Notes: generated by a model not told the origin, from the letters alone. A stretch of 64,000 nt of DNA from Minisyncoccota bacterium (GCA_036169735.1 JAVHNX010000051.1:8569-72568); one strand, 5' to 3'; shown: positions 34,164 through 50,098, counted from the stretch's first letter. Numbers and translations: made by a program.

Positions 34164-35549
34164 CTATTTGAGGTTTAATTTCCAAAGATAAGAGTTATTT
34201 TTATTCACAAAAAATAGATAATTTTCTCCATCATCCAATGCTAGTTTTATTCCATCCATATCCTCCCCTCCTATGGTTGAAGCAGGATCGAGAATCAATG
34301 ATGCATTGTTATTGGTAACATTTATTTTCCATATTTGATCTGAGAAAGAAACTTGTCCTTGATACCAAACATCTGGGTATGCCAATTGATCAACAAATTT
34401 CGGCACTGAACAATAAAGCGAATCACTATTTTTACCCCAAACGCATTTTTCTGGAAGAGTCTTTAATCCAAGAGGATTTGAACTTCTTGAATCTAAACTA
34501 TAAATACTAAGTGCTAGATTGTTGTTGCTATAAAGAACAAGTTTACCATTTGGACTAGTTAGAGTAGTAAGTCCGTTTATATTTCCTAGTATTTTATTAA
34601 AATCTTTCTTATTTGGATCGACTGCATACATATAACCTGGAACAGTAGCTGATGGTTTTGTTGTTAAAGTAATCATTTTTGTATTAGGCCATTGAGATAA
34701 CCATTCTGTGAAAGGAGAATTAAACACTTGAGATTTTTTATCACCAAGTGAACCAGAAGTTATACCTACAGTGCCATCTCCGATATTAAAAAAATAAAAT
34801 AGTTTTAAAGTGTCAGCTGACATACTCAAATCTGAAATATTTTCTGGAAAGAAAGATCCTTTAATTTGATTTTCCCCTGTTGTATCTGCTCCCAATACTT
34901 CTTTTGGTAAACTACCAGTGAAAGTCTCGATAGTTCTGTCATCTGTTTTTAAATATCGCATGATTACAGACTCACCTTTGTTTCCAAAATGAGCTTCATA
35001 TATAATTGGAATTATTGTTGTGGTAAATTTACGCTCTTCTATTTTATCTGCGAAAGTTTGGTAGATATTTCCTGTTGCACGTTCTACATATCTTACTGCT
35101 GGCACAAATTCAGTTGGTGGGGATGTTGGTTTAACTGGAGTTTTAGTTTTTGTAGTAGTTTTTTTTGTTGTACTGGTTGTTGTTGTGACAACTGGTACTG
35201 TTATATCGACTGGTGCTACGACAGGTACTACTACTGGTAATTCTTTGAATCTCTCTTTCATAAATATTCCAAATCCTGCAATAGGCATGCTTGATACTTT
35301 GGTCAACTTAAGTTTAGGTGCTTCTACTACAGGTGCGGGCTGAAATCCTGAAACATCAGCTGGTGCAGTAGGTTCGACTGGTGCTGGTGTGCTTTTAAAG
35401 AAAGGAAAAAATTTGGAGACAAAGTTTGATCCAGGTGAGCCAGCTGTTGTTGCTATTTGATTAGTATTATAAAAATAGAAAAAACCTAAACCAACAGCCA
35501 ATATGGCTATTAGAATAATTATTAAAAGTGTAAAGTTTCTTTTTTGCAT
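34164..35549 (-). CDS. Membrane-anchored hypothetical protein with Pro/Thr-rich linker (last gene of the T4SS-like operon)
   Basis: N-terminal TM (LLIIILIAILAVGLGFFYF), PT-rich linker (TTTSTTKKTTTKTKTPVKPTSPP), then a large extracytoplasmic domain. Confidence 0.5.
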   Translation of the reverse strand: MQKRNFTLLIIILIAILAVGLGFFYFYNTNQIATTAGSPGSNFVSKFFPFFKSTPAPVEPTAPADVSGFQPAPVVEAPKLKLTKVSSMPIAGFGIFMKERFKELPVVVPVVAPVDITVPVVTTTTSTTKKTTTKTKTPVKPTSPPTEFVPAVRYVERATGNIYQTFADKIEERKFTTTIIPIIYEAHFGNKGESVIMRYLKTDDRTIETFTGSLPKEVLGADTTGENQIKGSFFPENISDLSMSADTLKLFYFFNIGDGTVGITSGSLGDKKSQVFNSPFTEWLSQWPNTKMITLTTKPSATVPGYMYAVDPNKKDFNKILGNINGLTTLTSPNGKLVLYSNNNLALSIYSLDSRSSNPLGLKTLPEKCVWGKNSDSLYCSVPKFVDQLAYPDVWYQGQVSFSDQIWKINVTNNNASLILDPASTIGGEDMDGIKLALDDGENYLFFVNKNNSYLWKLNLK

Positions 35550-35566
35550 ATTATAATTATTTTTTT

Positions 35567-36700
35567 TTATTTTCCATCAAAAGACCAGTGCCAAGGCTCT
35601 TTTGAAAAATTAATAAGACCATAACTCCCTGCGTTAGCTTTTAACCAAATAAAGCATTTGTTGTCTTGTGTCTGGATTAAAACTCCTTCACATGTGAAAT
35701 CAAAAGCTAGACCACTTTCATGTCTTGATGTGCCTGGTACAGCAGTCGGAGGGTGGCATGTTGCTTTTGCATCATAAATACTCTGACTACCTCCACAATT
35801 TTGTGCCCTAAGATTTTCTTGAGATTGTTTTGATCTAAAGGAACCACCAGCCAGTTTGATTTGTATGCTTTGTGACCATGCTGAGTTAATCAAACTTTTT
35901 GCACCATTTGAAATTCTTTTACAGACCAAAAAATCTCCACCGGTAGTAGTTATTTTTTCAAATCCTTCTGTACATAAAGCATAAGGACCGCTCGGTGGTA
36001 TATTGCTAGTAGGGCCCACTGCCATAGCCGGTGTTTCCTCTTCTTGGATCGTTGCCTGCGGAATACCACTCAGACTCACATCCAAGAGTTGCGGGTTGAT
36101 TGTGAAAAGTAATGCATAAGCACCCAATGCGATTATAAGACCAAATATGGCATTAGTGATTCTCTCCTTCCCTTCTTCTTTGTGTCCTGAAATTTCACTA
36201 GTCATGTATTCGATACCACCGATGACTATCATTATCATTGCCAACACAGCACATATACCAATAAATAATCTAATTAATATATTTAAGTAGTCCCCAAAAG
36301 AATTAGCTTTTGCAGAGTCAAAAGTTGTTTGTAAGCCTCCTGATCCATTAGGTAGTGGAGCAAGTGGTGTATATGTTGTGTCTGTATTAACAGATCCACT
36401 GGCACCAGGTATTGGCACCGGTTTGTAAACATTTAAGGCAGTGGTACAACTATCAAAGGTATCATATGGACCTTTCCATACAATACCTGGATATCCGCCC
36501 TCAAGTGGCAAAAACCAATATTTTTGTACTGGCATTATAGTATTTGTATTTTTATCTATTGGATAACTTTTGCAAACTAACGTAGATTCAGCAACTGGTG
36601 GTTCAGTGACTTGGGCTTTTGAAAAAGAAAAAAAAGAAAAAACACCTAAAAATAAAATTATGATAACTAATATTTTATTTTTTAAATTTAACTTTTTCAT
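35567..36700 (-). CDS. Secreted protein with VirB2/TrbC-like pilin hairpin fused to a C-terminal M15 (VanY-like) peptidase domain
   Basis: Signal peptide. Central two-TM hairpin with charged loop (NILIRLFIGICAVLAMIMIVIGGIEYMTSEISGHKEEGKERITNAIFGLIIALGAYALLF), typical of T4SS pilins. C-terminal SRHESGLAFDF and EPWHW match the M15 zinc-ligand motifs SxHxxGxAxD and ExWH. Confidence 0.5.
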   Translation of the reverse strand: MKKLNLKNKILVIIILFLGVFSFFSFSKAQVTEPPVAESTLVCKSYPIDKNTNTIMPVQKYWFLPLEGGYPGIVWKGPYDTFDSCTTALNVYKPVPIPGASGSVNTDTTYTPLAPLPNGSGGLQTTFDSAKANSFGDYLNILIRLFIGICAVLAMIMIVIGGIEYMTSEISGHKEEGKERITNAIFGLIIALGAYALLFTINPQLLDVSLSGIPQATIQEEETPAMAVGPTSNIPPSGPYALCTEGFEKITTTGGDFLVCKRISNGAKSLINSAWSQSIQIKLAGGSFRSKQSQENLRAQNCGGSQSIYDAKATCHPPTAVPGTSRHESGLAFDFTCEGVLIQTQDNKCFIWLKANAGSYGLINFSKEPWHWSFDGK

Positions 36701-36703
36701 ATA

Positions 36704-37690
36704 TTAAAAATTTATAATGAGTTCTTTTTCCTTACTTTGGAAAAGAGTTAAGGTATTATTAATCGCTACTTTGATTCTAGCTGATCCTGTTTGTCCGCTG
36801 ACTGGCTTGATTGCTAGTATGTTTTTAGGATCAGGTGTTTGTGTTGGTTGACCATTAAAAGACCAGTCAAAAGTTAGGTCTGGTGACTGAATATTTTTTG
36901 GTGAAAAGAAATATGGTTCTACAACAAGGATTTCCCCGTTTGCATTTATTTGTAAACCATTAGTTAACGCTTTTTCCCATTGTGTACCAAGGGATAGATT
37001 TTTTTTGTAAAAAATTATTTGAGGCTTTACTGTATTTAAGGTAATAGTGCCTGAAGTATTTGTAGTTCCAGAGATGTCTGATGCAGTTACTTGTACAACA
37101 TTATTTTCATCTAAATAACTGTTTTTGAAAATAAAATAACTTTTACCCCATCCAGAATAGTCTGGCTGACTAGTAGAATCCTTGGACCAAGAATAAGAAA
37201 GATTGCTAGCATTTGATTTACCTGTTGATGTTATTAGATTTGGTATTGCTACTACTTTAAAAATTCCTTGACTAGGAGCCAATGCCTTGCCTTTATAAAA
37301 AGGCGGAGTATATGAATCATAAGCCTCCCACAACATGTCCATTTCTGTAGGTGTTAGAGTTATATTCTTTATTATGCTTTGCCCGTCGATAGTGTTCATT
37401 CTTGCCTCTAGTATTAAAGAAGATCCCATATTTCCAGTATTAAAAGAAAATGATTTTTTACCAACACCTGAGATTATTTCTTTACCATTTACTGACCAAG
37501 AAATATTTGCTTTATTAAGATCTAAAACATAACTACCCAAAGTGGCGTTTATGTTTTGGTTTGGAGCTGGATATGTTGGATTGATATTCAAAGTAACATC
37601 AGTATTTTGAACCTGAGCAAAGACTGTTCCTAAAAAAGAACAAAATAAAATAATGGCAACGAATATTGATTTTTTAATCAAACTTATCAT
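36704..37690 (-). CDS. Secreted hypothetical protein (T4SS-like operon)
   Basis: Signal peptide MISLIKKSIFVAIILFCSFLGTVFAQ. No family motifs. Confidence 0.5.
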   Translation of the reverse strand: MISLIKKSIFVAIILFCSFLGTVFAQVQNTDVTLNINPTYPAPNQNINATLGSYVLDLNKANISWSVNGKEIISGVGKKSFSFNTGNMGSSLILEARMNTIDGQSIIKNITLTPTEMDMLWEAYDSYTPPFYKGKALAPSQGIFKVVAIPNLITSTGKSNASNLSYSWSKDSTSQPDYSGWGKSYFIFKNSYLDENNVVQVTASDISGTTNTSGTITLNTVKPQIIFYKKNLSLGTQWEKALTNGLQINANGEILVVEPYFFSPKNIQSPDLTFDWSFNGQPTQTPDPKNILAIKPVSGQTGSARIKVAINNTLTLFQSKEKELIINF

Positions 37691-37766
37691 ATTATTGTTC
37701 TATTATACTCCCATTTGCTTGAATGGCATACCCCATTTACCGAAAATGTATCACTATTTTTAGATA

Positions 37767-39608
37767 TTAATGCGGTGCTTCTGCCTCTGTTTGCAAGTCT
37801 TCTTTTGCTTTTTTGATAGATAGAATTTGGGATGGATCGGAAGTGATTATTTGGTCTTCGGTATAAGAAGCGATTATTTTAATCGCCACGTGTTTTAGTC
37901 CCGCAAAGAAGATACCCTCCCCCACTCCAGATTCTAAAAGAAGATATTTTTCTTCGTCTGTTAGGTTGAATGTTTTTTGTAGGATATCAATTGTTGTTGG
38001 AGATTGTTTTAGAAGAAGTTGAATAGATGAGTTGGAAACAATAGGAACACCATAAGGTGATTTCATAAAGTCAGCTGCGTCTTGAGTGATAGTAGAAAGT
38101 CCAAGATAGTATTTTCTGCCTCTTTTTGCAATAGAATATAAGAATGAAGCAGTATCTTCTGATTTCATCATCCACCATGCCTCATCAACGACAAGTAAAC
38201 GCTTTTTTAAATTTTTACGAATAGCATTCCAGATATAATGCATAACGATGTACATTGCAATCGGTTTTAGTTCATCTTCCATATCACGCACAGAGAAAAC
38301 CACAAATTTTTTATTTATGTCCACATTTGATGGTCTGTTCAAGAACGTTGCCCAAGAACCTCGAGTGTATTTGATAAGTCTTTGCACTACTGAGTCACTA
38401 CCTTCCATTCCTGAAAGAACCATTTCAAAATCGGAAAGAAGCGGTGGTTCGATATTTGAGAAATCTGATTCTGGGGTAATATCTTTTATTGCATAAGTCT
38501 CAGAAATAGCACGGTCAACCATAGAATCTTCTTCTGGAGTAAGACCACCGAGCATTAGACGGAAAAGACCGACAAGATTAATCGTGTTTGAACGTAATAC
38601 ATCCTCTGCTGTCTCGTCTTCACGAGGCATCGGCAAATCAAAAGGATTGATGTGGTGATCAGAAGAAAGAGAAATATTAAAATATCTTCCACCAACAGCT
38701 TCAGCCAAGAATTCATATTCTCGTTCTGGGTCGATAACAATAACATCTACATCAAACATCAATGATCTTAAAATTTCGAGCTTGATGGCATAAGATTTTC
38801 CTGAACCAGATTTTGCGAAGGTTACTGAGTTGTAATTTTCCAATGAAAATCGGTCGAAAATAACTAGACTGGAATTGTGTCGGTTGATACCATAAAGTAT
38901 TCCCTTATCTGAAGTTAAGTCGAAAGAAACGAATGGAAAAATACTAGAAAGTGGTTCCGAATTAAGCTTTTGGTGAATATTTAATAGGTCGTTCCCTATT
39001 GGGATGACACTCTTGAATCCTTCTTCTTGTTGGAATAGTGCTGGTTTAATATAAATAAGTTTTGATTCTAGAATTGATTTTATTTCATTCTCAACTTTGT
39101 AAAGTTCTAGTTCATTGTCGGCGTAAACTGTGATATACACACCTACATCAAACATCTTTTCTTGTGCTTGCATTAAATTATCTCGAAGACTTTCAAGATC
39201 TTGAAACGCAATATCCAACATCGGATCGCGTACCATTCCTTTGGATTCTCGAGTAGAAATCTGACTTTGTACTTCCGCTACTTTTTTCTGAAATTCACGG
39301 AGTGCGATTGAAGTGTCTATTGGGTGGATAAAAATAGAAACATCAAAGATCTTATCCAAGTTAATAATAGGAGAAAACCAATTGTCTGTCAGGAATCTTG
39401 GGTAAGATATGATAAAAAATGTTCGCGCGATTTTGTCTCCCAGGTTTATTGATTTTGGTTCTATTTTTAGGGCTGACGGTGCGATAACATCTTGGAGTTC
39501 GAGTGTTGCTGATTCGTATATTTCTTCAGGTAGTACGGATAAAATAGAAGCACTAGCATTGCTTCCTTGATTTTTCTTTTTTCCAAATAATGAATCAAAA
39601 ATACCCAT
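37767..39608 (-). CDS. virB4: Type IV secretion system ATPase VirB4/TraC/TrbE family
   Basis: N-terminal VirB4-type region (...LGDKIARTFFIISYPRFL...), Walker A FAKSGSGKSY, and Walker B/D-E box LLVVDEAWWMM. 613 aa. Confidence 0.8.
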   Translation of the reverse strand: MGIFDSLFGKKKNQGSNASASILSVLPEEIYESATLELQDVIAPSALKIEPKSINLGDKIARTFFIISYPRFLTDNWFSPIINLDKIFDVSIFIHPIDTSIALREFQKKVAEVQSQISTRESKGMVRDPMLDIAFQDLESLRDNLMQAQEKMFDVGVYITVYADNELELYKVENEIKSILESKLIYIKPALFQQEEGFKSVIPIGNDLLNIHQKLNSEPLSSIFPFVSFDLTSDKGILYGINRHNSSLVIFDRFSLENYNSVTFAKSGSGKSYAIKLEILRSLMFDVDVIVIDPEREYEFLAEAVGGRYFNISLSSDHHINPFDLPMPREDETAEDVLRSNTINLVGLFRLMLGGLTPEEDSMVDRAISETYAIKDITPESDFSNIEPPLLSDFEMVLSGMEGSDSVVQRLIKYTRGSWATFLNRPSNVDINKKFVVFSVRDMEDELKPIAMYIVMHYIWNAIRKNLKKRLLVVDEAWWMMKSEDTASFLYSIAKRGRKYYLGLSTITQDAADFMKSPYGVPIVSNSSIQLLLKQSPTTIDILQKTFNLTDEEKYLLLESGVGEGIFFAGLKHVAIKIIASYTEDQIITSDPSQILSIKKAKEDLQTEAEAPH

Positions 39609-39664
39609 ATTTATTAGTATATTATAACTTAAAAACTTAAAAGCTGAAAGCCAAAAAATTCTTA

Positions 39665-40309
39665 CTACTTTGTTTCTAGTTCTATTTTACCTTCAATTTC
39701 TCCTGGGTTGAATACTTTGTAGAATACTTCTACTACTTCTTCTGTTCCTAGTTGAGCAGATTTTACACCACAACGAGCAAGACCTTGCTGAATAACACTC
39801 ACTCTTTGTTCGAGCTGAGACCTCTTTTCTTCAAAATCGATTTGTTCTGCGGCTCTTGCTTCTTCTTTGTTTTTTCTTGAAAAAATACCTGAAAAAAATC
39901 CCGCATCAGCTTTAAAAGCTGTCGCAGTATAAGGCACAACAACAAAAAAGCTTTTAGTCATTATACTCACAGTCTCTGTAAAATTTTTAATGAATTCAAT
40001 ATATTCTCTTGTTTGTAGTTTTAACAATGGTTCATTTTGAACTTTCATTCTGTTTTCTAAAAGTAAAAGGTAAGGCCTAATATCAAGTTTTCTTGATTGG
40101 ATTGATATTTGAACAGAAAAGTCTATGGTATTCAAGAAGTTTTGAAACTGAAGAATCGTCGCTCTTTGTTCGTCAAATGATTTCAAAGACAGGTTCGTGG
40201 AATTAGCCAGAACAATAGCTCGAAGTCCCCCGTCTTTTAGAACGATCATACCATCTCGGACTTCTTTGATGGGGACAAACTCTTGAGTTGCTTTTGCTGA
40301 TAATGCCAT
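39665..40309 (-). CDS. Hypothetical T4SS-associated protein (weak resemblance to VirB4 N-terminal domain pattern)
   Basis: Lies between the PrgI-like and VirB4 genes. FVPIKEVRDGMIVLKDGGLRAIVLANSTNLSLKS... loosely mirrors the VirB4 N-terminus. Low confidence. Confidence 0.35.
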   Translation of the reverse strand: MALSAKATQEFVPIKEVRDGMIVLKDGGLRAIVLANSTNLSLKSFDEQRATILQFQNFLNTIDFSVQISIQSRKLDIRPYLLLLENRMKVQNEPLLKLQTREYIEFIKNFTETVSIMTKSFFVVVPYTATAFKADAGFFSGIFSRKNKEEARAAEQIDFEEKRSQLEQRVSVIQQGLARCGVKSAQLGTEEVVEVFYKVFNPGEIEGKIELETK

Positions 40310-40341
40310 ATACTAATTATAAATTAAAATTAAAAATTGTC

Positions 40342-40791
40342 TTATTTTTCTTCTTTTTTTGTATCTAAAACATCCAGACTCCAAGCTAAATCTTTTAATT
40401 TACTCCCACCCAATCTTGGTTCAGTTATACCAGGATAATTTGTTCCTTGTTTCAACATTTGTGTTTTTGTTTCTGCGGCCATTCTTTCTTGTGCTTTAGT
40501 TTCTGTACTTTTTCTTCTTCTTTTCCAAATATAAAGTTTGTCTTGGAAAGCATATTTGAAACCGGCTTCTAGCATATATATAAAAGGTTTATTGTTTGGT
40601 CGGTAGAATGTGAGCATACCGGCAAACCCTCCTACTAAAATTATCGGGATTATACCCCAAAGAAGTCCGATTAGTTTATAAATAACAAAACACAAACCTC
40701 CCCCACCCACAAGGTAAACGAATTCCCTAAAAGTGAATGGTCCAAAGATTTTGTCCTCTATATCTAAAAATTGTGGGACTTTGAATTGCAT
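40342..40791 (-). CDS. PrgI/TcpE-family small membrane protein (VirB3-like)
   Basis: MQFKVPQFLDIEDKIFGPFTFREFVYLVGGGGL... followed by two TM helices. This is the signature start of PrgI-family conjugation proteins. Located immediately upstream of VirB4 as in Gram-positive T4SSs. Confidence 0.6.
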   Translation of the reverse strand: MQFKVPQFLDIEDKIFGPFTFREFVYLVGGGGLCFVIYKLIGLLWGIIPIILVGGFAGMLTFYRPNNKPFIYMLEAGFKYAFQDKLYIWKRRRKSTETKAQERMAAETKTQMLKQGTNYPGITEPRLGGSKLKDLAWSLDVLDTKKEEK

Positions 40792-40803
40792 ATTGATTAG
40801 TTT

Positions 40804-41587: not shown

Positions 41588-44461
41588 TTAATGTGCGTGT
41601 CCTCCTCCACCTCCCGCTGGTGCTGCGTGTGTATCTGCAGTGTGTGTGGCAGCATGTGAATCATTTACTTTTACATCTACTTCCACATGTTTTGTAAGAT
41701 CTTCTACTTTATGTTTATCTTCTTTACTCATCTTCTTCAGTGCATCTAGAAGAGATTTATCTTTACTAATTCCTTTTCGTACAGCTGCTACAACTTCAGG
41801 ATTTGTTTTGTGAATTTCACTGAGTGAATAACCTCCGATTTCCACATGAGAAACAGCTTTCTTTAGAGCACTCAAGAATCCTCCACCCACAACTGCACCA
41901 ACGATTAATGGAGCTGCCATTCCTCCTGATCCGACTATTGCTGCACCAGCTAATGTCTTATTGGTTTTTGTATCCATTTTCTTCATACTGTCATTCCAAT
42001 CAGCCCAAAAGCCTTTTATTGCAGATTTATCATGATCCTTTTTTGCTTGATCTTCCAAACTAACGGCATACGATTCTCTTCGTTCTGCATTTATTTTCTT
42101 AGAATCTTTTTCTTCCACTGCCCCCTTAATGTCTTTGGCTTTTGCTCCTTCTTCATTTCCTTCTGTTAGACCATAACTACCAAGGTCTTTCCCTTCTTCA
42201 TGATAATCTTTTTTAAATTTCTTTTTGAACCCTTCTTCATCAAATGACACAAGAGGTGGAGGAGGTGGAGTTCCTGCTTCATATTCTTCTTTAAACTTCT
42301 TTTCATCAAAAGCCTGTTTAACTTCAAAAGGCTTTGTTGGTTTAGCTGCTTCGGCTGCTTTTGCTGCAGTCATTTGTTTAGTATATTCATTTTTCCATTT
42401 CTCATTGTCTCCTGCGAGTGCTGCAGTTGCTGTAGTCTTGGCATTTTCTACTGCTTGTTTTTCATCACCTGTATAAGCAGCTTTTTGGTCACTAGCTTTT
42501 TTATCTTGTTTTTGTGCAGCAGCTCCGGAGATTTCATAAGTTGCCATTGTCTTTTGCGCTTCTTCTTTTTCGTGTTCAAGCTGAGCCTTCATACCACCCT
42601 TGAGGTTTGCAGTACCGACTCCCATTGTGCCAGTTCCCTTATCAAGATTTAAACCAGTTGCTCCACCGAATTGTTTTCCTATATCAGTCTGTCGGAAATC
42701 AAAACTCTTACTTGCTGTCTTGTTTGCTGCAGCTAGTTTCTTTTGTGCGTCGGCTTGTGCTTTTTTCTGACCAGCAATATCGTCTTCTTTTATTCCTGCT
42801 CGGGCAAATGCTGCTTTGTCTCCAGATGCCATTGATTTTAGATTGTCGTCATTGGCAACTCCTAAAGCTTTCTTACCTACAGTGTTACGCATAGCCATCG
42901 CTGCTCCTCCTGTCGCCACACCTAATGCAAGTCCTGTAACAGCTGATCCTGCTTTAGTTATCGCCTCTCCAATATCACCTGAGTATTCTACTGCGAGTTT
43001 CTTTGCCTTTTGTAGAAGAAGGAAAATAATTAGGAAAGGAACAACAACTCTCATCATTTTGTCTAATACACCATCATTGGTTGCAACATTATAAGCAATA
43101 AGATTAAATGACTTACCAAGTAAAAGTATTACATAAAGGAAAAAAATAAAAAGTGGTGCCATGAAAGCTTGTTTCAAAAGATCATCCCACCATTTTTTGT
43201 GTCCTACACCAGGAATATCAAACGGTAATGTGTAAGAGGCGAAGGCTATCGGTGCCATAATCATTGCGACCCAAAGCCCTGCGACTCGTCCGACAAACAA
43301 AAGAGCCACTGACATAAAAATATATATCATGTATACCATCAGTATGATTGATATCAGGATTATTATAAGTGTCATTCCAGGTTGACTTGCTTTGTCTGCT
43401 ATTACGGTTTGTGGGTCAAAAGTATTAACCAAGAGCACTGTGATGGATTTTTGCCCAGCTCCACCAGCTGGTAATATCTCTCCGTTGGCTCCTTTGGAAT
43501 CGATATGATTATAAAAAACTTTTGCCAGGATATTTGATCCATCGATTATTACTTGAGTAAAAAACATACTGAAATTTATTAGAAGAGCGACGATGACTAT
43601 CGTTGCTATCATTTTCTTTCCCCCATGCCCTCCTAACCCTAAAATAGTTTGTATTGCGACATAGAGCAAAGCAATAATAAAAAATATATTAGCAATATCT
43701 CGTACTGTCGCCCAAGCTGAACCGATAAAACTTCCAGAATAAGAAGTACTAAGAGTCGAGTAGTAAATAAAGAAATCAAGAATTGAAGCAGCGAATTTTG
43801 TTACCCAAGAAATAGGTGTCCAAATTAAATAATAAATTGCTCCAACAATACACTGCTTAAACCAAGTGAACATGCTTAAGCCACAGCCAAAACTATCGTC
43901 TATTGTTGCACCAGTACTTCCTCCGGAGTTTACTGGGTTGTTATCTACTGAAGTTGGTGTTGTTGTACTGGCTGTATGAAATGTTGTATTTAGTATTTCT
44001 AAACCACCTTTGTATTTTATTTTTAACCAATACTGTGTATCTGGTAATAGATCAACATCATTACTATTACTAAAATTCTTACCAAAAAATAAAACAACAT
44101 CTCGCATAGTACCTCCCTGGACACCTGCTTCTGCTGAAGTGATCATTTGTGTAGGGTCATTTTGAGTTCCATTTAAATACAACTCACCTAATATTGTTTT
44201 AGTATTCTCTGTATCAAGATTGTTGAAAGCCGAAAGATGAACTTTGGCCATATTTAAATTTTTTTCTATTACACCTAAAATAAAACATGGTGTTGCTGAG
44301 CCTATATCACATGCAGCTGGTGTCTGTGCTAAAGCTGTATTTACTTTTGGAACGATAGCTAAATTACCTTCATTATTTTTTTGAAAACTAGCACTGACAG
44401 GCGCTAGAAAAATAGCGACCATCACTGCTGATAAAATAATTTTTGTGAAAATATTCTTCAT
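41588..44461 (-). CDS. VirB6/TrbL-like polytopic membrane protein with large N-terminal extracytoplasmic and C-terminal K/A/E-rich domains
   Basis: Signal peptide, about 190-aa exported domain, at least 6 TM helices (e.g. IIALLYVAIQTILGL, IATIVIVALLINFSMFFTQVII, LIIILISIILMVYMIYIFMSVALLFVG), then a long hydrophilic tail. This architecture matches T4SS VirB6-type proteins. Confidence 0.5.
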   Translation of the reverse strand: MKNIFTKIILSAVMVAIFLAPVSASFQKNNEGNLAIVPKVNTALAQTPAACDIGSATPCFILGVIEKNLNMAKVHLSAFNNLDTENTKTILGELYLNGTQNDPTQMITSAEAGVQGGTMRDVVLFFGKNFSNSNDVDLLPDTQYWLKIKYKGGLEILNTTFHTASTTTPTSVDNNPVNSGGSTGATIDDSFGCGLSMFTWFKQCIVGAIYYLIWTPISWVTKFAASILDFFIYYSTLSTSYSGSFIGSAWATVRDIANIFFIIALLYVAIQTILGLGGHGGKKMIATIVIVALLINFSMFFTQVIIDGSNILAKVFYNHIDSKGANGEILPAGGAGQKSITVLLVNTFDPQTVIADKASQPGMTLIIILISIILMVYMIYIFMSVALLFVGRVAGLWVAMIMAPIAFASYTLPFDIPGVGHKKWWDDLLKQAFMAPLFIFFLYVILLLGKSFNLIAYNVATNDGVLDKMMRVVVPFLIIFLLLQKAKKLAVEYSGDIGEAITKAGSAVTGLALGVATGGAAMAMRNTVGKKALGVANDDNLKSMASGDKAAFARAGIKEDDIAGQKKAQADAQKKLAAANKTASKSFDFRQTDIGKQFGGATGLNLDKGTGTMGVGTANLKGGMKAQLEHEKEEAQKTMATYEISGAAAQKQDKKASDQKAAYTGDEKQAVENAKTTATAALAGDNEKWKNEYTKQMTAAKAAEAAKPTKPFEVKQAFDEKKFKEEYEAGTPPPPPLVSFDEEGFKKKFKKDYHEEGKDLGSYGLTEGNEEGAKAKDIKGAVEEKDSKKINAERRESYAVSLEDQAKKDHDKSAIKGFWADWNDSMKKMDTKTNKTLAGAAIVGSGGMAAPLIVGAVVGGGFLSALKKAVSHVEIGGYSLSEIHKTNPEVVAAVRKGISKDKSLLDALKKMSKEDKHKVEDLTKHVEVDVKVNDSHAATHTADTHAAPAGGGGGHAH

Positions 44462-44517
44462 TAGATGTTATAAATAATTATAACATTGTTTTTAACAAAA
44501 AGCCTTTAATAACTTTT

Positions 44518-46185
44518 TTATTTTTTGAAATAATACTCATACCCACTGGTGTTTTTCAAGCCAGAAGTTAAATTTTGGATATTTATGATTCTTGAGTTGT
44601 AATATTCATAAACGGTAATCTTATTGGCAACAACTTTGATTTGATAAGCAGCAATATCGGGTTGACTGACGCGTACTTCTTTACCACTTGCACTGACATA
44701 ACCGAATACTTTTGCGAAAAAGTCCGCGAGTGTCCAAGCAAAAGATGTAAGGTTCTCCCCTTCTTGATAACCGTATAGTTTTGCTAGATTTTTGTCAGCG
44801 ATTATTTGTCGAGCGAAAACTGTCTCGATACCTTCATGATAATGTACAGTGGCGTCTCCTGGTGGAGTTGCGATTGTACCTATTGTTAAAGTTGTTGTCG
44901 TTGTTGTGGTTGTTCCAGTACCAGTTCCAGTGCCTCCACCACCATTTGGATCTACACAATTAGGATAAGTACCTTCCCATCCACTCGGACAAACACCATT
45001 GTTATTATTTGGACCAACACAGTTAGGATAAGTACCAGTCCATCCACTTGGACAAATGTTACCGCCACCACCATTTGGATCTACACAATTAGGATAAGTA
45101 CCTTCCCATCCACTCGGACAGTTGGTGGTATCAATCAAACCATCTCCCCCATCAGTTGCTCTAGTTTTAAAACTTAAAATTCCTCCGTCAAAAGTTTGAA
45201 CACCATCAGCTGTCTCTGCCTTGAATACATAATTATATTTTGTGTTTGGTGTTAATCCAGTTAAAGGGAAAGTCATAGTTCCAAAAGTATTAGCTGCATG
45301 AGTTTCATCGCCTACTCTCGTCCATGGTGACGCAGGATGTGCTTCACCTATTGTATTTACGTTTGATAAAGTTCCATAAGTATAAGAGTTATTTTGTGCA
45401 TTAAGCAATGCAGATAATGCTTGGGAATTCATACCTATTGTTCCTTGATTAACAGTGTTTATTGTGTTGGTGTTGTATTGTGTATTGAGTATAGAGGGTT
45501 CTAGTTGAGAATTCATACTTACTGGGTTCATATTTAAAGGATTAGTATTGTTTTGTGTATTAAGTAACGTTGCTACTTGAGCATTAACACTAGCCGTTGC
45601 TTCGCTGATAGCTGCGTTGGGATTAAAAACAAAACTAGTGTCTTTTTTATACTCGAAATAAGTATTAACAGAATCTACAGATCTGTACGATCCTCTTATA
45701 TCGGTTGATGTTGTGTCTATATTTGATGCATTGATTGTCGTTGCGACAGTTTGGGCACAAGTTGGACATGGATCGGTTGTAAAACTTTTAACTTCTCCGT
45801 ATACAATTGATTTCTTGTTTGAAACAATACTGCAGTAATGATAAGTTGTGCTTGGTTCTAAATCGGTTATATGTTGACTAAAAGATTGTGCTCCACCATA
45901 TTCATTAAAATTTTTAATATCTTTGGTTGATACCATATTATTTCCATAAATTTCATTACAAAAAACAGGAGCTATCTCTGTATCAGAATATCTGAAATAT
46001 GCAGTTGTTGTTAGTCTTGGATTTAAACTTAAATCTGGTGACACTGTTCCGTGAAGTGTAGCTTCTGTGTCAGTGACAATATCCGCACCACCAGTAGTGA
46101 CAGCGAGAGCAGCGAGAGAAATACCCGGCTTGAAAAATACAAGGGATAATATGATTATAAGTAATATTGTTTTTATGTTTTTCAT
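44518..46185 (-). CDS. Secreted protein with three tandem Cys-containing repeats CPSGW(E/T)GTYPNCV(D/G)PN and a poly-Thr tract
   Basis: Signal peptide MKNIKTILLIIILSLVFFKPGISLA. At DNA level there are about 60-bp tandem repeats at about 44935-45125. Confidence 0.55.
   Translation of the reverse strand: MKNIKTILLIIILSLVFFKPGISLAALAVTTGGADIVTDTEATLHGTVSPDLSLNPRLTTTAYFRYSDTEIAPVFCNEIYGNNMVSTKDIKNFNEYGGAQSFSQHITDLEPSTTYHYCSIVSNKKSIVYGEVKSFTTDPCPTCAQTVATTINASNIDTTSTDIRGSYRSVDSVNTYFEYKKDTSFVFNPNAAISEATASVNAQVATLLNTQNNTNPLNMNPVSMNSQLEPSILNTQYNTNTINTVNQGTIGMNSQALSALLNAQNNSYTYGTLSNVNTIGEAHPASPWTRVGDETHAANTFGTMTFPLTGLTPNTKYNYVFKAETADGVQTFDGGILSFKTRATDGGDGLIDTTNCPSGWEGTYPNCVDPNGGGGNICPSGWTGTYPNCVGPNNNNGVCPSGWEGTYPNCVDPNGGGGTGTGTGTTTTTTTTLTIGTIATPPGDATVHYHEGIETVFARQIIADKNLAKLYGYQEGENLTSFAWTLADFFAKVFGYVSASGKEVRVSQPDIAAYQIKVVANKITVYEYYNSRIINIQNLTSGLKNTSGYEYYFKK
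44935..45125. repeat. Three tandem 60-bp coding repeats (copies 1 and 3 nearly identical)
   Basis: CCACCACCATTTGGATCTACACAATTAGGATAAGTACCTTCCCATCCACTCGGACA appears twice and a diverged copy lies between. Confidence 0.7.
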
Positions 46186-46188
46186 ATT

Positions 46189-48663
46189 TTAGTAAATTTT
46201 TATGCCTTTGCTTTCAAATGTTGGTGGGTCCATATAGGCACCACTTCTGCAAGTCATTACACTTATACCTCTACAAAGAAAATTGTCTGGAACGACGTTA
46301 GTATAGGCAGCCGTTACATTGAAAACACCAGTAAGAAATGAAGGTAATGACTGGTTAGTAAATGCCTGTTTGTTTGTTTGCGAATAAGGAAGGTTTGTGT
46401 CAGGAGAGATTGTTGAAAATTGTATACCAGGTATCTCTGGAATAGGGTGATCTGGAATTTCTATATCAACACCCATATTGTAATCATATAAATGAGGTTC
46501 TTGATAAGAAGGCCTTGTTAGAACCCAAAATCTCCAGTCAGTCCTGGCTCTCCATGTGGTCTGTAGTTCTTGCTCACAACCACTTGGCCCCTTTAGGAGA
46601 TTATCCCAAACGTAATTTCTTTCTGCTTTTGCTTGTTCATACAAACCATTAATGTTGGCTATGTCATCCCCGGTTTTTAAGTTCTGTGAGATTCTCGCAA
46701 ATTGTTTTATTACAAAACTGGTCGGGGAAAAATCAGTATAAGTACCATTGTCGATGCCTTTTTTTAATGTTTGAAGTTTTGTAATATTTTCGTTTTGAAA
46801 AATAATTTCTGATTTATTGTCTTCTATCAATTGTTGATAGCCTATAACTTTATTAAATTTTTCAACTGATTCTCTCCAAGTAAATGGCATAAAATTACCG
46901 TCTTTATAATATTTGTCAATTGTTGTTTTGTAGGCATTAAATGTTCCATCTAAAAAGCTAATTCCTGCTTCTTTTGTAATTTTACTAGTATCAGCACCAA
47001 ACCCAAATATCATATTAGTAACCCTTTGAAATGAAATTTGTACAACAGTTGAGATTACATCGTCTGCATACTCAGAAGGTGTATCTGAACGGGTAAGAAA
47101 ATCCTCAACATCTGTAATTTCAGCTAAGATTGAATCTTCGGTTGTCTGAAGGCTTTCTCTTGAATCACTCTCCCATCCTGGATGGGGTCCAGGCATACAA
47201 TAATCTAATTGATAAATTGTTCTATTTAAGGCATCTAATTCCTTGTCATACCATTCTAACTTAGATACATAAGTCCTCTGTTGGTCTACTAGAGCTTGGG
47301 TAACATCAGTATGAATATTGAAATCAGGATTTTCAGAAAGCCAGAATGTATTTCCACTTCCGAGTGGAAAATCTTGTTCTACTTGAGTTTGCCCGTCGAT
47401 TCCACTAGTACCACTATAATCAAATTGATCATTTGGGTTTGATGGAGACATACTAGCCAAACCTTGATTCATAAGCTCTCCTCCCCATTTGCTTATTGCT
47501 GCATCCAATATAGCTGCGATAGCATCATTGAGATCTGTTACAGAAAGAAGTTGATCTTTTTTGTCGTCCATTAATTTCGTAGCAGCTTGCGCTATCATTC
47601 CTCCTGGTGTGACATACTCCCATTTCGCACAGATATTATCCTTATTCCACTTGTCGTAATCAGAAGTGCCTGGTACTAAATTCCGATTACCTTCAGATAC
47701 AAGAGCTTGTTTTTCTGTTTGTCTAGTTATTTCATGATTACTAGCACACTGTTCTTGCCCCAAGAAACCCCCAGCTTCTTTTAATGCATCACGAACATTT
47801 TGCGCAGCTGTTTGTACAGTACCTTCTAGCCTTGCTTGTAGTTCATTTGAGGCTTGTAAATTGAAACCAATTGGATTATTGGCCGGTACTTGTGTTAATG
47901 CACTCCAGGCGTTCCATCCTCCGGCAGAGAAATCTGTAGTAAAGCTAAGGCTTGTGTATTCTGGTGTGGTATCTTGAATAACTTTATTTAAAGAGTATTG
48001 AGCATTTTGTGCAAAATGATTCTTTAGAGATAGAGCTTGATTTTGCATAAATGCTCGTCCAAAAGGATACAGTGTTGTGTTGCTTATTTCTGAGTTGAAT
48101 TTTAATATTTCATTTTTAGCTATATCTTGGAAGTAAGTTTGTCTGTCTTTGGGCCAGAATGATTCTCCAAAGTTTCCGGTGTTGATCCAGTTCACGGTGC
48201 TTTCAGTTAATGTCTTGATTAACATTTTAGCAATCATTTTACCAACGCTGTCTAAACAAAGTTTATTACTTGCAACAGTATCTGTTGTTTTTTTAGTTCC
48301 CGCTGTACTTATTTCTGTTTTAATTGTTGCTTTATCAACAATCTTATTATTTATTGATACTGACAATGCCATATTCCCTGCTGTTTCCCCTGCTGAGGTT
48401 AAGGTACTACCACTACCAACGCTACTAGAAAATAAACCCTTTATTGCATTTATGCCTTTACCTATTCCGTCTTTTAATACTTGTTTACATCCTTGTAACT
48501 TTGGTATCATTGGGGTCGCTAGTTCCATATAGTAACTGAGATCTTGTTGTCCTGAATTAAATTGGGCGTAAGCATTTTGGGCTGTACCGAAATATGGCAC
48601 TAAAATTGCTCCTACTAAAAGAAATGAAATTATAGATTTTTTGAAATATTGTTTATGTTTCAT
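46189..48663 (-). CDS. Large secreted hypothetical protein (824 aa)
   Basis: Signal peptide ...FLLVGAILVPYFGTAQNAYAQ. No family motifs recognised. Confidence 0.5.
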   Translation of the reverse strand: MKHKQYFKKSIISFLLVGAILVPYFGTAQNAYAQFNSGQQDLSYYMELATPMIPKLQGCKQVLKDGIGKGINAIKGLFSSSVGSGSTLTSAGETAGNMALSVSINNKIVDKATIKTEISTAGTKKTTDTVASNKLCLDSVGKMIAKMLIKTLTESTVNWINTGNFGESFWPKDRQTYFQDIAKNEILKFNSEISNTTLYPFGRAFMQNQALSLKNHFAQNAQYSLNKVIQDTTPEYTSLSFTTDFSAGGWNAWSALTQVPANNPIGFNLQASNELQARLEGTVQTAAQNVRDALKEAGGFLGQEQCASNHEITRQTEKQALVSEGNRNLVPGTSDYDKWNKDNICAKWEYVTPGGMIAQAATKLMDDKKDQLLSVTDLNDAIAAILDAAISKWGGELMNQGLASMSPSNPNDQFDYSGTSGIDGQTQVEQDFPLGSGNTFWLSENPDFNIHTDVTQALVDQQRTYVSKLEWYDKELDALNRTIYQLDYCMPGPHPGWESDSRESLQTTEDSILAEITDVEDFLTRSDTPSEYADDVISTVVQISFQRVTNMIFGFGADTSKITKEAGISFLDGTFNAYKTTIDKYYKDGNFMPFTWRESVEKFNKVIGYQQLIEDNKSEIIFQNENITKLQTLKKGIDNGTYTDFSPTSFVIKQFARISQNLKTGDDIANINGLYEQAKAERNYVWDNLLKGPSGCEQELQTTWRARTDWRFWVLTRPSYQEPHLYDYNMGVDIEIPDHPIPEIPGIQFSTISPDTNLPYSQTNKQAFTNQSLPSFLTGVFNVTAAYTNVVPDNFLCRGISVMTCRSGAYMDPPTFESKGIKIY

Positions 48664-48742
48664 TTTTTTTGTTTATGACTTAGCCATAAATTTATTAATT
48701 AGAATCATACTTGGTTCATCTAGCCCGCTTATTATATCACTT

Positions 48743-49675
48743 TTATTGCATGACTGCTTCCATATCTGAAACTGCTGCGATAAATTCTTCACTATACTTT
48801 TGATATTGAGAAAGACCTGAGAGTCCGACGACTGGGTCAGCTATTGTTTTCGCCATATTGCGTACACTGATACCTGTGTTGTTAGCACTATTGGCTATTT
48901 TCAAATGATATTGCGCCAAACTTTCTGGTACGGCTATTTTCATAGCCTCATTTGCAAAATCTTGATAAGCATCAGCTATAGTTTGAAGTTCTGCTGATTG
49001 AGTTCCTGTACCGAGTGTCGAATATATTGAAAGATCATTGCCCACGATGTCTAATTCGTCCCCTAAACCTGTAGAAGCATAACCCTCAAATAATGTTTTC
49101 ATCGCAGCGTAGTATTTGTTTTGATTTTTTGATGAATTATCGGTACTTACTCTCACTTCATCTTGAACATAACGATCAATCAGTGTAGGGTCTATCATTT
49201 TTTGACCTAAAGCACTAGAAAAGTTGTTTATAGTATTACTGTCCACCTGACCTGATTGTTTCATAGACATAAATGCAGCAAAAAACTCCCTTGAGAATTT
49301 ATCTGTTTCGGTCAAGTTTTCATCATTTGGAGTTTGTTCTGTCCCAAGCTCAATTTTTTTATTCTGTATATAAGTAGCGTCTGGTGTGTTGTTGAAAGTT
49401 ACTTTATTATTTTTGTCAGTACCCCAAAGAGCCTCTTCCCAGTCAGGGATCCCATCACTGTCAGAGTCTTTTAATACAAGTTCGTTTATAGTTAGTTTTC
49501 CTGTTTCCTGTATCAGGGCATTTTTCTCAGCTTGAGATATAAATTTTTCTTTTGCAGATATCCTAAAAAATATAAAAAGACCAATAGCCACAACGAGACA
49601 AGTAAGACCTATTTTAATAAACCTTTTGCTTGGGATATATTTTGAATATTTTTCTAAAACATGTTTTTTTTTCAT
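48743..49675 (-). CDS. Membrane-anchored hypothetical protein (N-terminal TM)
   Basis: TM LTCLVVAIGLFIFF, then a hydrophilic domain. Confidence 0.45.
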   Translation of the reverse strand: MKKKHVLEKYSKYIPSKRFIKIGLTCLVVAIGLFIFFRISAKEKFISQAEKNALIQETGKLTINELVLKDSDSDGIPDWEEALWGTDKNNKVTFNNTPDATYIQNKKIELGTEQTPNDENLTETDKFSREFFAAFMSMKQSGQVDSNTINNFSSALGQKMIDPTLIDRYVQDEVRVSTDNSSKNQNKYYAAMKTLFEGYASTGLGDELDIVGNDLSIYSTLGTGTQSAELQTIADAYQDFANEAMKIAVPESLAQYHLKIANSANNTGISVRNMAKTIADPVVGLSGLSQYQKYSEEFIAAVSDMEAVMQ

Positions 49676-49687
49676 CTGATATTTAAT

Positions 49688-50098
49688 TTACTTTTTAGAG
49701 GTCCCAAAGAGAACCATCGTTGCAAGATTAACTACGGTTGTCACTGGTGGATCTCCCTTCAAAATGCAGGTAATCGGGGTTGTTGTTGGACTATAGAGCC
49801 CAAGAATTGATTGCCCTGGTGATAATGGTAATTTTGTTTTGCTAACAACAGCGGCTGGTATAAAATATCCTGTTGGGGCTTTATTTACTGGTTTAATTGT
49901 TATAGTCTGACCAGGAATTACGCAAGTATAGCCAGTAGTTTGCAAAGATTTTATCTTTGTGTTCGTTGTATATAATATTTTTCCACCAAAAGATTTAGTT
50001 GAAGCAGCTGCAAAAGCAATCTTTATTGTAACTAGTACAAAAAATAACACCAATATAGTTCGTGCAAAAATCTTTATCATTCTATTATTATACTCCAA
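49688..50098 (-). CDS. Small secreted hypothetical protein (first gene of the T4SS-like operon)
   Basis: N-terminal anchor/signal IFARTILVLFFVLVTIKIAFAAAS. Confidence 0.45.
   Translation of the reverse strand: MEYNNRMIKIFARTILVLFFVLVTIKIAFAAASTKSFGGKILYTTNTKIKSLQTTGYTCVIPGQTITIKPVNKAPTGYFIPAAVVSKTKLPLSPGQSILGLYSPTTTPITCILKGDPPVTTVVNLATMVLFGTSKK

What the first reader, a model, noticed from the sequence alone, without database searches (positions are those of the whole stretch)
34164..50098. 16-kb, 12-gene operon encoding a type IV secretion-like apparatus rich in secreted proteins
Twelve co-directional, tightly spaced genes include a VirB4 ATPase (37767-39608), a PrgI/VirB3-like membrane protein directly upstream (40342-40791), and a VirB6-like polytopic membrane protein with exported N-domain and long tail (41588-44461). 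There is also a VirB2-like pilin hairpin fused to an M15 peptidase (35567-36700) and seven further secreted or membrane proteins of unknown function, including a Cys-repeat protein and an 824-aa exported protein. No relaxase, coupling protein (VirD4) or VirB11 is present in the window. This suggests a minimised, non-conjugative T4SS-like machine, possibly for DNA uptake or host-cell interaction in an episymbiont.
Basis: partly seen in the sequence, partly recalled or inferred. Interest (0 to 1): 0.75.

Follow-up and report, generated by a model that had tools for sequence, protein, structure and literature searches.

The report
Patescibacteria-type type IV secretion operon
This is a real, origin-proximal type IV secretion gene cluster of the kind already described in ultra-small Patescibacteria (CPR) bacteria; its one unusual detail is a single pilin-like membrane hairpin fused to a cell-wall enzyme domain that differs between close strains.

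Summary
Twelve co-directional minus-strand genes (34164-50098) encode a monoderm-type T4SS:
- PrgI/VirB3
- a VirB2-like hairpin fused to a VanY/M15 peptidase
- six exported or membrane-anchored accessory proteins and one cytoplasmic protein

No relaxase, T4CP or VirB11 was found in the 64 kb window.

The cluster lies between uvrD-ksgA and jag-yidC-rnpA/dnaA-dnaN. The same order recurs in most of 42 fully flanked Paceibacteria loci. VirB4 identity (76-93%) tracks DnaA identity (Spearman rho 0.81). It is therefore a vertically inherited core locus, not an ICE.

This is the Patescibacteria T4SS already published: Wang 2023 (essential in Southlakia) and Quinonero-Coronel 2025 (origin-proximal in Paceibacteria, no relaxase). 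It is a new member of a known kind.

I did not find one feature in the papers I read. Only one pilin-like hairpin gene is present per locus. It always sits inside a 260-770 aa exported protein whose C-terminal peptidoglycan-active domain is interchangeable (VanY, YkuD, NlpC/P60, M15_4, Amidase_5, SLT). A relative with about 93% nucleotide identity carries YkuD exactly where this window has VanY.

The substrate and function remain inferred.

The parts
50087..50114 (-). Best sigma-70-like promoter match (TTGAAA-16-TATAAT, 11/12), just upstream of the first gene. The -10 box ends 7 nt before ATG 50080, which suggests a leaderless or very short-leader transcript.
   Evidence: The total number of promoter-like sites in the region does not exceed the shuffled expectation, so only this top match is notable.
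49688..50098 (-). g1: small exported protein (signal-peptide-like N-terminus, 2 Cys), function unknown. The likely true start is ATG 50080.
   Evidence: No Pfam or NCBIfam hit. Homologues lie directly upstream of g2 in L051, L053, L068 and L011, with the order ksgA-g1-g2 in L051 and L053.
48743..49675 (-). g2: N-terminally membrane-anchored protein (TM at aa 19-37) with a DSDGDGIPDWEE motif and a mostly helical exo-domain. Function unknown.
   Evidence: No family hit. Present in 32/42 fully flanked related loci at about 27% identity.
46189..48663 (-). g3: 824-aa exported protein (signal peptide, 8 Cys). It is a lineage-specific T4SS accessory family of unknown function.
   Evidence: Present in 37/42 loci. 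184 homologues, all named hypothetical, with no informative Pfam domain.
44518..46185 (-). g4: variable exported protein with fn3-like N-terminal repeats and three 22-aa CPSGW(E/T)GTYPNCV repeats.
   Evidence: Tandem repeat of 66 nt x 2.9 copies at 44936-45120. Weak fn3/Pur_ac_phosph_N hits. Detectable in only 10/42 related loci at 23% coverage, which makes it the least conserved slot.
41588..44461 (-). g5: extended VirB6-like polytopic membrane protein. It has a signal peptide, an exported N-domain (aa ~27-185, low model confidence), a helical TM core (aa ~190-515), and a long charged tail with a further hydrophobic segment (aa ~837-866) and a Gly/His C-terminus.
40804..41553 (-). g6: protein with no signal peptide or TM segment (predicted cytoplasmic). 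It has a conserved helical N-domain and a Pro/Thr-rich tail. Function unknown.
   Evidence: No family hit. Present in 33/42 loci, sometimes duplicated in tandem.
40342..40791 (-). g7: PrgI/VirB3-like small membrane protein.
   Evidence: Pfam PrgI 5.6e-8, 33.7 bits against a gathering score of 27; TcpE 1.1e-3. Hydrophobic segment(s) at aa ~25-53. Present in 42/42 loci at 54% identity.
39665..40309 (-). g8: TrsD-like protein, a stand-alone VirB4 N-terminal domain. Together with g9 it forms a split VirB4.
   Evidence: NCBIfam VirB4_plasma positions 102-233 (1.2e-9) and TrsD (7e-4). 31% identical to the gene just upstream of VirB4 in the Pontibacillus system (3e-26). Present in 42/42 loci at 73% identity.
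37767..39608 (-). g9: VirB4 ATPase core (613 aa) with Walker A (GSGKS) and Walker B (VVDEAW).
   Evidence: Nearest plasmid-borne relatives are 28-36% identical and come from Bacillota and Actinomycetota.
36704..37690 (-). g10: exported protein (signal peptide) with three internal W..NG...G.GK.F repeats, probably tandem Ig/PKD-like domains.
   Evidence: A few homologues give weak PKD_3, Ig_3 or BiPBP_C hits. Present in 41/42 loci. No PDB sequence match. The fold was not modelled.
35567..36700 (-). g11: signal peptide + exported N-domain + VirB2-like two-helix hairpin (nt 36104-36304) + VanY/M15 peptidase (nt 35573-35923). The peptidase keeps the SxHxxGxAxD motif (SRHESGLAFD) and the ExxH motif (EPWH). 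It is the only pilin-like gene in the window.
35555..36051 (-). Swappable C-terminal cassette of g11. A relative with 93-94% nucleotide identity (L001) is colinear on both sides but carries non-homologous DNA here, encoding a YkuD domain in place of VanY.
   Evidence: Across 67 homologues: NlpC/P60 11, VanY 9, YkuD 5, Amidase_5 4, M15_4 3, SLT_2 2, SLT 1 (family counts, which can overlap on one protein). The C-domains fall into 23 sequence clusters.
34164..35549 (-). g12: N-terminal TM anchor, disordered Pro/Thr linker, and an extracellular seven-bladed beta-propeller.
   Evidence: AF2 mean pLDDT 78, propeller 80-96. Foldseek gives generic WD40/RACK1 propellers, E 2e-10, TM-score 0.6-0.65 normalised to target. 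The family has at least 1392 members, a few with an inserted PG_binding_1 domain. Present in 41/42 loci.

Best explanation
This is the chromosomal, origin-proximal type IV secretion system typical of Patescibacteria, here in a Paceibacteria/Nomurabacteria-like genome.

Shown:
- The cluster encodes a monoderm-type inner-membrane translocon: a split VirB4 ATPase (TrsD-like N-domain plus core), PrgI/VirB3 and an extended VirB6.
- It also encodes a VirB2-like hairpin protein carrying a peptidoglycan peptidase, and several exported or anchored proteins, including a beta-propeller, an Ig-like repeat protein and a large orphan protein.
- It is vertically inherited and highly conserved.
- No relaxase or coupling protein lies in the 64 kb window.

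Inferred:
- VirB4 hexamers dock on PrgI and VirB6 to power assembly and transport through the membrane.
- The hairpin-anchored enzyme opens or remodels peptidoglycan, either the cell's own wall or the host's, at the site of the machine.
- The exported proteins build the wall-spanning and host-contact part.
- By analogy with the essential Southlakia T4SS, the machine moves proteins or other molecules between the epibiont and its host cell, not conjugative DNA. The substrate is unknown.
For: - Component assignments: VirB4, TrsD-like, PrgI, pilin+VanY; VirB6 fold.
- Gene order matches Firmicute conjugation modules: VirB6-PrgI-VirB4-PG hydrolase.
- Closest non-CPR system: Pontibacillus, with pilin-like genes, a TrsD-like gene and a short VirB4.
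- Synteny uvrD-ksgA-[cluster]-jag-yidC-rnpA-dnaA-dnaN in most of 42 fully flanked Paceibacteria loci.
- VirB4 identity correlates with DnaA, DnaN and YidC identity (rho 0.81-0.82). VirB4 is also more conserved than DnaA (76-93% against 55-93%).
- GC content is like the flanks.
- No relaxase, T4CP or VirB11 in the window.
- Literature: the T4SS is essential in Southlakia, has pilins, and has no recognisable relaxase or T4CP (PMC10633639). VirB4 occurs in 2,417 of 3,035 Patescibacteria genomes as a clade derived from MPF_FATA. TrsD, PrgI, VirB6 and VirB2 lie near virB4, and dnaA, dnaN, rnpA and ksgA are neighbours in Paceibacteria (PMC12102498).
Against: - No experiment bears on this organism. 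Function is transferred from a different class (Saccharimonadia).
- VirB6 rests on a predicted fold plus synteny. All direct sequence-profile tests failed.
- No VirB8-like component was identified.
- Five accessory proteins have no assignable role.
- A T4CP or relaxase elsewhere in the genome cannot be excluded from a 64 kb window.
- A single transcription unit is not established. Six of the 12 genes have their own TATAAT 6-21 nt upstream of the ATG.
Confidence: 0.88

Rival explanations
1. It is an integrated conjugative element, or a decayed remnant of one, and the T4SS serves or once served DNA transfer.
For: VirB4 belongs to the CD1110 family that NCBIfam names as a conjugal transfer ATPase. 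The gene order mirrors Firmicute conjugative plasmids. An IS200-like transposase lies at 16586-17329 and a Fic gene is inserted next to the cluster.
Against: The cluster has the same position and order next to dnaA in most of 42 fully flanked species-level genomes. VirB4 divergence tracks DnaA divergence. There is no integrase, relaxase or T4CP, and no GC shift. The nearest tRNA genes are more than 20 kb away. Every core ORF is intact and strongly conserved.
Confidence: 0.02
2. It is a DNA-uptake (competence-like) T4SS, analogous to the archaeal Ced system or Helicobacter ComB. It would import host DNA as a nucleotide source.
For: No relaxase or T4CP is present. Patescibacteria cannot make nucleotides de novo (PMC10633639). 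In class ABY1 the T4SS co-localises with comF, recG and radA (PMC12102498). VirB4 gives a weak CedB hit.
Against: The CedB match is 34.6 bits against a cutoff of 700. No CedA-like or ComB7-10-like genes are present. In Southlakia, DNA uptake runs through T4P/ComEC, and a comEC deletion abolishes competence without affecting viability while the T4SS remains essential (PMC12857230). No competence genes lie next to this cluster.
Confidence: 0.07
3. It is primarily an envelope or cell-wall machine of the bacterium itself, for example for surface-filament assembly or peptidoglycan remodelling during growth and division. It would not be an intercellular transporter.
For: VirB4 is more conserved than DnaA. 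The cluster lies beside yidC. The only pilin-like protein is fused to PG-active enzymes that include L,D-transpeptidase-fold and carboxypeptidase domains, which are typically housekeeping activities. Some g12 homologues carry PG_binding_1.
Against: The enzyme cassette is swapped between strains at about 93% nucleotide identity and falls into 23 sequence clusters among 67 homologues. That pattern suits adaptation to a variable external target better than a housekeeping role. Every known VirB4/VirB6/VirB3 system transports substrates or builds a mating pilus. This is established knowledge of T4SSs, not something tested here.
Confidence: 0.08

Closest known systems
Patescibacteria-clade T4SS (Southlakia epibionticum SEML1_0005-0019; survey of Quinonero-Coronel et al. 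2025)
   Same: A short (~612-aa) VirB4 is preceded by a TrsD-like gene and PrgI. A large extended VirB6 lies upstream. Cell-wall hydrolase and Ig-like exported proteins lie downstream of VirB4. VirB2-like pilin homology (PF18895) is present. No relaxase or T4CP lies nearby. The locus is close to the replication origin.
   Different: Southlakia has six small free-standing pilin genes on the opposite strand and separate lysozyme genes. Here, and in the related Paceibacteria loci examined, there is one pilin-like hairpin per locus, embedded in a 260-770 aa protein that carries the cell-wall enzyme. No NTF2/VirB8-like protein was seen here. The accessory proteins g2, g3 and g12 are families not mentioned in the Southlakia annotation passages I read; homology to the Southlakia proteins was not tested.
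MPF_FATA conjugative T4SS of Bacillota (CD1110/CD1112/CD1115 type, e.g. C. botulinum pCDC3875; pCF10 Prg/Pcf)
   Same: The order VirB6-PrgI-VirB4-PG hydrolase is the same. VirB4 scores above the NCBIfam CD1110 cutoff. The architecture is monoderm, without VirB7/9/10.
   Different: Those modules carry VirD4 and often a relaxase, have an unsplit ~790-aa VirB4 and a compact ~265-aa VirB6, lack a pilin, and sit on mobile elements. VirB4 identity is only 28-36%.
Pontibacillus sp. ALD_SL1 megaplasmid system / Mycoplasma ICE (Mbov_0395 pilin-like, Mbov_0397 VirB4)
   Same: It has pilin-like genes recognised by the g11 hairpin profile (E 2.5e-12 and 4.4e-10), a TrsD-like gene (31% identical to g8), a short 621-aa VirB4 (33% identical, 1e-120), and a large M23 hydrolase directly downstream.
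   Different: Its pilin-like genes are small and free-standing, not fused to the hydrolase. It lies on a megaplasmid of a free-living Bacillota species.
R388 Trw / Agrobacterium VirB (MPF_T) T4SS
   Different: No VirB5, VirB7-11 or VirD4 was found. It is monoderm. The VirB2-like part is fused to large exported domains.

Membership tests
Patescibacteria-clade T4SS | VirB4 belonging to the monophyletic Patescibacteria clade nested in MPF_FATA | tested here: inconclusive
   No tree was built. The 80 closest loci kept are annotated as Patescibacteria-lineage or unclassified-bacterium MAGs, with VirB4 76-100% identical. The nearest plasmid VirB4s are only 28-36% identical and all come from monoderms. 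NCBIfam CD1110 scores above its cutoff. These results fit the clade but are not a phylogenetic placement.
Patescibacteria-clade T4SS | TrsD-like and PrgI/VirB3 genes adjacent to virB4 | tested here: met
   Both are found in 42/42 related loci.
Patescibacteria-clade T4SS | VirB6 homologue near virB4 | tested here: met
Patescibacteria-clade T4SS | VirB2-like pilin (PF18895/PF04956) near virB4 in a monoderm | tested here: met
   PF18895 scores 34 bits against a gathering score of 26.6 in g11. 56 of 67 homologues hit PF18895.
Patescibacteria-clade T4SS | No relaxase or T4CP in the cluster; chromosomal, near dnaA/dnaN/rnpA/ksgA in Paceibacteria | tested here: met
Patescibacteria-clade T4SS | Required for epibiotic growth | not testable with these tools
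   Shown only for Southlakia by Tn-seq (PMC10633639).
Conjugative T4SS / ICE (MPF_FATA) | Associated relaxase, T4CP (VirD4/TcpA) and mobile-element context | tested here: not met
   None found in 64 kb. The locus is vertically inherited at a fixed chromosomal site. The rest of the genome was not available.
Archaeal Ced DNA-import system | CedB equivalog plus CedA/A1/A2 | tested here: not met
   CedB scores 34.6 bits against a cutoff of 700. No CedA-like genes were recognised.
TrbL/VirB6 (Pfam PF04610; NCBIfam CD1112) | Score above the curated cutoff | tested here: not met
   g5 and 54 homologues give no hit. One distant member scores 24.6 against 25.9 bits. hhalign against four CD1112 proteins gives E 0.15. 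By fold it works like a VirB6, but it is not a sequence-defined member of these models.
VanY / peptidase M15 | Pfam score above the gathering threshold and intact Zn-ligand motifs | tested here: met
   47.5 bits against 25. SRHESGLAFD and EPWH are readable in the translation.

The most novel reading that the evidence does not exclude
In this Paceibacteria lineage the VirB2-like element may not be a conventional pilin. It could be a conserved membrane or pilus anchor that displays interchangeable cell-wall enzymes (VanY, YkuD, NlpC/P60, M15_4, Amidase_5, SLT) and variable N-terminal domains on the cell surface. The enzyme cassette would be exchanged by recombination, even between strains of about 93% nucleotide identity, to match the peptidoglycan chemistry of different hosts. 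That would make it a polymorphic 'effector-on-pilin' module of an essential T4SS.
Probability: 0.25. Interest if true: 0.6.

Novelty: new member of a known kind. Interest (0 to 1): 0.35.

Why it matters
The Patescibacteria T4SS is considered one of the most intriguing recent additions to the T4SS superfamily: it is essential, carries pilins in a monoderm, and its substrate is unknown. This locus adds no new kind of system.

It does give a clean, complete Paceibacteria example with a structure-supported VirB6 and a recognisably split VirB4.

It also offers a concrete, testable lead. The single pilin-like hairpin is fused to a rapidly exchanged peptidoglycan-active domain. That points to cell-wall breaching, of the cell itself or of the host, as a built-in and host-adapted step of the machine.

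Tried and rejected
- **VirB6 by sequence.** All of these were negative or non-significant: Pfam and NCBIfam on g5; Pfam on 55 homologues; family profile against PDB sequences; hhalign against four Firmicute CD1112 VirB6-like proteins (E 0.15). Only a near-threshold TrbL hit in one distant homologue and the fold searches support VirB6.
- **g10 and g12 family profiles against PDB sequences.** Nothing was found.
- **g3 family search.** 184 homologues, all named hypothetical.
- **g12 structure.** A generic seven-bladed propeller, so no functional clue.
- **ICE hypothesis.** Rejected on synteny and co-divergence.
- **Ced-like DNA importer.** Rejected on score.
- **Source of the L001 YkuD cassette.** I checked whether it derives from the second YkuD protein in this window (57180-58628). 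There is no similarity.
- **Source contig.** The look-up returned only short Logan contigs.
- **Terminators.** Terminator-like hits on the coding strand all lie inside ORFs, so I did not use them.

Full report
**1. Observation**

The region 34164-50098 holds twelve ORFs on the minus strand, separated by 3-79 nt. The flanks are housekeeping genes. Downstream lie jag, yidC and rnpA on the plus strand, then dnaA and dnaN. Upstream on the same strand lie a Fic gene, ksgA and uvrD. GC content (0.345-0.387 in 2-kb windows) is like the rest of the window. The window is therefore the replication-origin region of a low-GC chromosome.

**2. Component assignments**

- **g9 (37767-39608), VirB4.** NCBIfam conju_CD1110 scores 378.5 bits against a cutoff of 325. 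Pfam P-loop_TraG gives 5.7e-24. The PDB VirB4 4ag5 gives 8e-39. Walker A and B motifs are readable.
- **g8 (39665-40309), VirB4 N-domain.** It matches positions 102-233 of the VirB4_plasma model, and g9 matches positions 285-893 of the same model. g8 also hits TrsD. VirB4 is therefore split into a TrsD-like N-domain protein and a 613-aa core.
- **g7, PrgI/VirB3.** It scores above the Pfam threshold.
- **g11 (35567-36700), pilin-like hairpin plus peptidase.** It has a signal peptide, an exported N-domain, a two-helix hairpin that hits T4SS_pilin above threshold and TrbC/VirB2 below it, and a C-terminal VanY/M15 domain with intact metal-ligand motifs.

**3. Accessory proteins**

- **g12.** A membrane-anchored protein with a disordered linker and a seven-bladed beta-propeller. 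Its family has at least 1392 members, and a few carry a PG_binding_1 insertion.
- **g10.** An exported protein with three internal repeats. A few homologues give weak Ig/PKD hits.
- **g3 (824 aa, exported) and g2 (anchored, helical).** Orphan families.
- **g4.** The Cys-repeat protein, and the least conserved slot.
- **g6.** It has no signal peptide or TM segment.
- **g1.** A small exported protein, also found just upstream of g2 in some relatives.

**4. What is absent**

No ORF of 110 aa or more that I scanned matches a relaxase, a VirD4/TcpA coupling protein or VirB11. A few small ORFs were not scanned, all far shorter than such proteins.

**5. Context in other genomes**

The best 80 kept are annotated as Patescibacteria-lineage or unclassified-bacterium MAGs (Nomurabacteria, Paceibacterota, Minisyncoccia and similar titles), with VirB4 76-100% identical.

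In the 42 loci with full 10-kb flanks, the order uvrD-ksgA-g2-g3-(g4)-g5-g6-PrgI-TrsD-VirB4-g10-g11-g12-jag-yidC-rnpA-dnaA-dnaN recurs. The core genes (g5, PrgI, TrsD, VirB4, g10-g12) are present in 41-42 loci, dnaA and dnaN in 39-40, and the outer genes in fewer, partly because of the flank limit.

VirB4 identity to the window correlates with DnaA, DnaN and YidC identity (Spearman rho 0.81-0.82). VirB4 is also more conserved than DnaA. This is vertical inheritance of a core locus, not an integrated mobile element.

The Fic gene is absent from all related loci. In L051 and L053 the order is ksgA-g1-g2. Fic is therefore an insertion specific to this genome.

**6. Relation to known systems**

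The nearest plasmid-borne VirB4s are 28-36% identical and come from Bacillota and Actinomycetota. Their modules read VirD4 - small ORF - VirB6 (CD1112) - PrgI - VirB4 - PG hydrolase (SLT, NlpC/P60 or M23) - hypothetical. That is the same backbone as here, with the coupling protein, and in some cases a relaxase, added.

A Pontibacillus megaplasmid system is the best non-CPR match. It already has small pilin-like genes, a TrsD-like gene and a short VirB4.

The literature describes exactly this kind of system:
- Wang et al. 2023 found an essential T4SS at SEML1_0006-0019 in Southlakia. It has pilins and no recognisable relaxase or T4CP.
- Quinonero-Coronel et al. 2025 found VirB4 in 2,417 of 3,035 Patescibacteria genomes, as a clade within MPF_FATA. 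TrsD, PrgI, VirB6 and VirB2-like genes lie near virB4, relaxases are rare, and dnaA, dnaN, rnpA and ksgA are neighbours in Paceibacteria.
- A 2025 review lists these systems as unique in being essential and possibly piliated.

**7. Mechanism**

Shown: the parts list, the predicted topology, conservation, and the absence of conjugation-specific genes nearby.

Inferred from established T4SS knowledge:
- VirB4, completed by TrsD, docks on PrgI and VirB6 in the membrane and energises assembly and transport.
- The g11 enzyme lies outside the membrane. The predicted topology places the signal peptide and both flanking domains outside and the K/R-rich loop inside, as in VirB2. It acts on peptidoglycan stem peptides at the machine.
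- g10, g12, g3 and g2 form the extracellular part.
- The substrate is probably protein or another host-exchange cargo, not conjugative DNA.

DNA uptake is less likely. In Southlakia the T4SS is essential independently of ComEC, and the CedB match here is far below its threshold.

**8. Side finding**

Only one pilin-like hairpin gene exists in the window. The related loci have one each, apart from two loci with two. This contrasts with the arrays of small pilins in Saccharimonadia.

In 67 syntenic homologues the hairpin is conserved. The N-domains range from 21 to 476 aa. The C-domains (nearly all 156-281 aa) fall into 23 sequence clusters. Pfam recognises NlpC/P60 (11), VanY (9), YkuD (5), Amidase_5 (4), M15_4 (3), SLT_2 (2) and SLT (1) among them; these family counts can overlap on one protein. 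In the examples checked, the domain is always C-terminal to the hairpin.

L001 is 93-94% identical to the window in nucleotide sequence and colinear on both sides. It carries non-homologous DNA exactly at 35555-36051, encoding YkuD in place of VanY. The proteins are 75% identical up to about 16 residues past the hairpin and unrelated after that.

I found no mention of this fusion or swap in the papers read, but I cannot exclude that it has been noted elsewhere. Large domains on both termini of every subunit seem hard to reconcile with a canonical VirB2 pilus unless the protein is processed. That is inference.

**9. Transcription**

The best promoter-like site lies just upstream of g1 and implies a start at ATG 50080. 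Across the window, 13 of 52 genes have an exact TATAAT within 30 nt of the start codon, against 3.4 expected. Only 7 have a Shine-Dalgarno-like core. Within the cluster, 6 of 12 genes have such a box. Internal promoters and leaderless mRNAs are plausible, so 'operon' should be read as 'gene cluster' until transcripts are mapped.

**10. Verdict**

The finding is real and correctly interpreted. It is a well-conserved member of an already described system, so I rate it a new member of a known kind with moderate-to-low interest. The pilin-anchored, swappable cell-wall enzyme is the one lead worth following.

Noticed in passing
window 50163-51104 (-): A Fic-domain gene with the canonical HPFGDGNGRVSR motif and a basic C-terminal tail (RKSKKK) is inserted between ksgA and the T4SS cluster. 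It is absent from all related loci, where ksgA abuts g1 or g2. Fic proteins are T4SS effectors in some bacteria. Whether this one is a substrate, a toxin or unrelated is unknown.
   Followed up: partly
window 35555-36051 vs L001 8316-8889: The C-terminal enzyme domain of the pilin-hairpin protein has been replaced as a cassette (VanY here, YkuD in L001) between genomes that are otherwise 93-94% identical across the locus.
   Followed up: yes
window-wide; T4SS genes at 34164-50098: An exact TATAAT lies within 30 nt upstream of 13/52 start codons (3.4 expected from shuffles). Only 7/52 genes have a Shine-Dalgarno-like core. This suggests widespread leaderless or short-leader transcripts and internal promoters inside the cluster.
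   Followed up: partly
window 41588-41650 (C-terminus of g5) and alignment A1: The VirB6-like protein ends in a Gly/His-rich motif (GGGGGHAH). The consensus of 55 homologues also ends in GxGGGHH, despite an otherwise unconserved charged tail. Its role is unknown.
   Followed up: no
L085 (Pontibacillus sp. ALD_SL1 megaplasmid NZ_CP062975.1, 349313-365088): A Bacillota system has two small pilin-like genes, a TrsD-like gene, a short 621-aa VirB4 (33% identical to g9) and a 1050-aa M23 hydrolase. It is the closest non-Patescibacteria architecture I found.
   Followed up: partly
L002 12871-14619 and 16024-17871: One close relative carries two paralogous pilin-hairpin proteins flanking the g12 homologue. 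One has an NlpC/P60 domain and the other has no recognised C-domain.
   Followed up: no
window 54554-61887 (-): A run of large Glu/Lys-rich ORFs without family matches (869, 482, 167 and 774 aa) lies in a stretch of strongly negative AT skew. The 482-aa protein ends in a YkuD domain. The 774-aa protein contains a DHH-like 'IDHHGTG' motif. None is present in the related loci fetched.
   Followed up: partly
window 54214-54553 (-): The 'intergenic' gap upstream of uvrD contains an unlisted small ORF of about 100 aa (MNPIQNNIIDILELDNLPKEEAEEIL...).
   Followed up: no
window 16586-17329 (-) and 20057-21754 (+): An IS200-like Y1 transposase-domain ORF, and a PilB-type T2SSE ATPase (type IV pilus motor) that lies apart from any other pilus genes recognised in the window.
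   Followed up: no
P0129, P0207, P0224, P0231, P0233, P0238 (homologues of g12): Some homologues of the beta-propeller protein carry an inserted PG_binding_1 domain. This hints that the protein sits in or on the cell wall.
   Followed up: no
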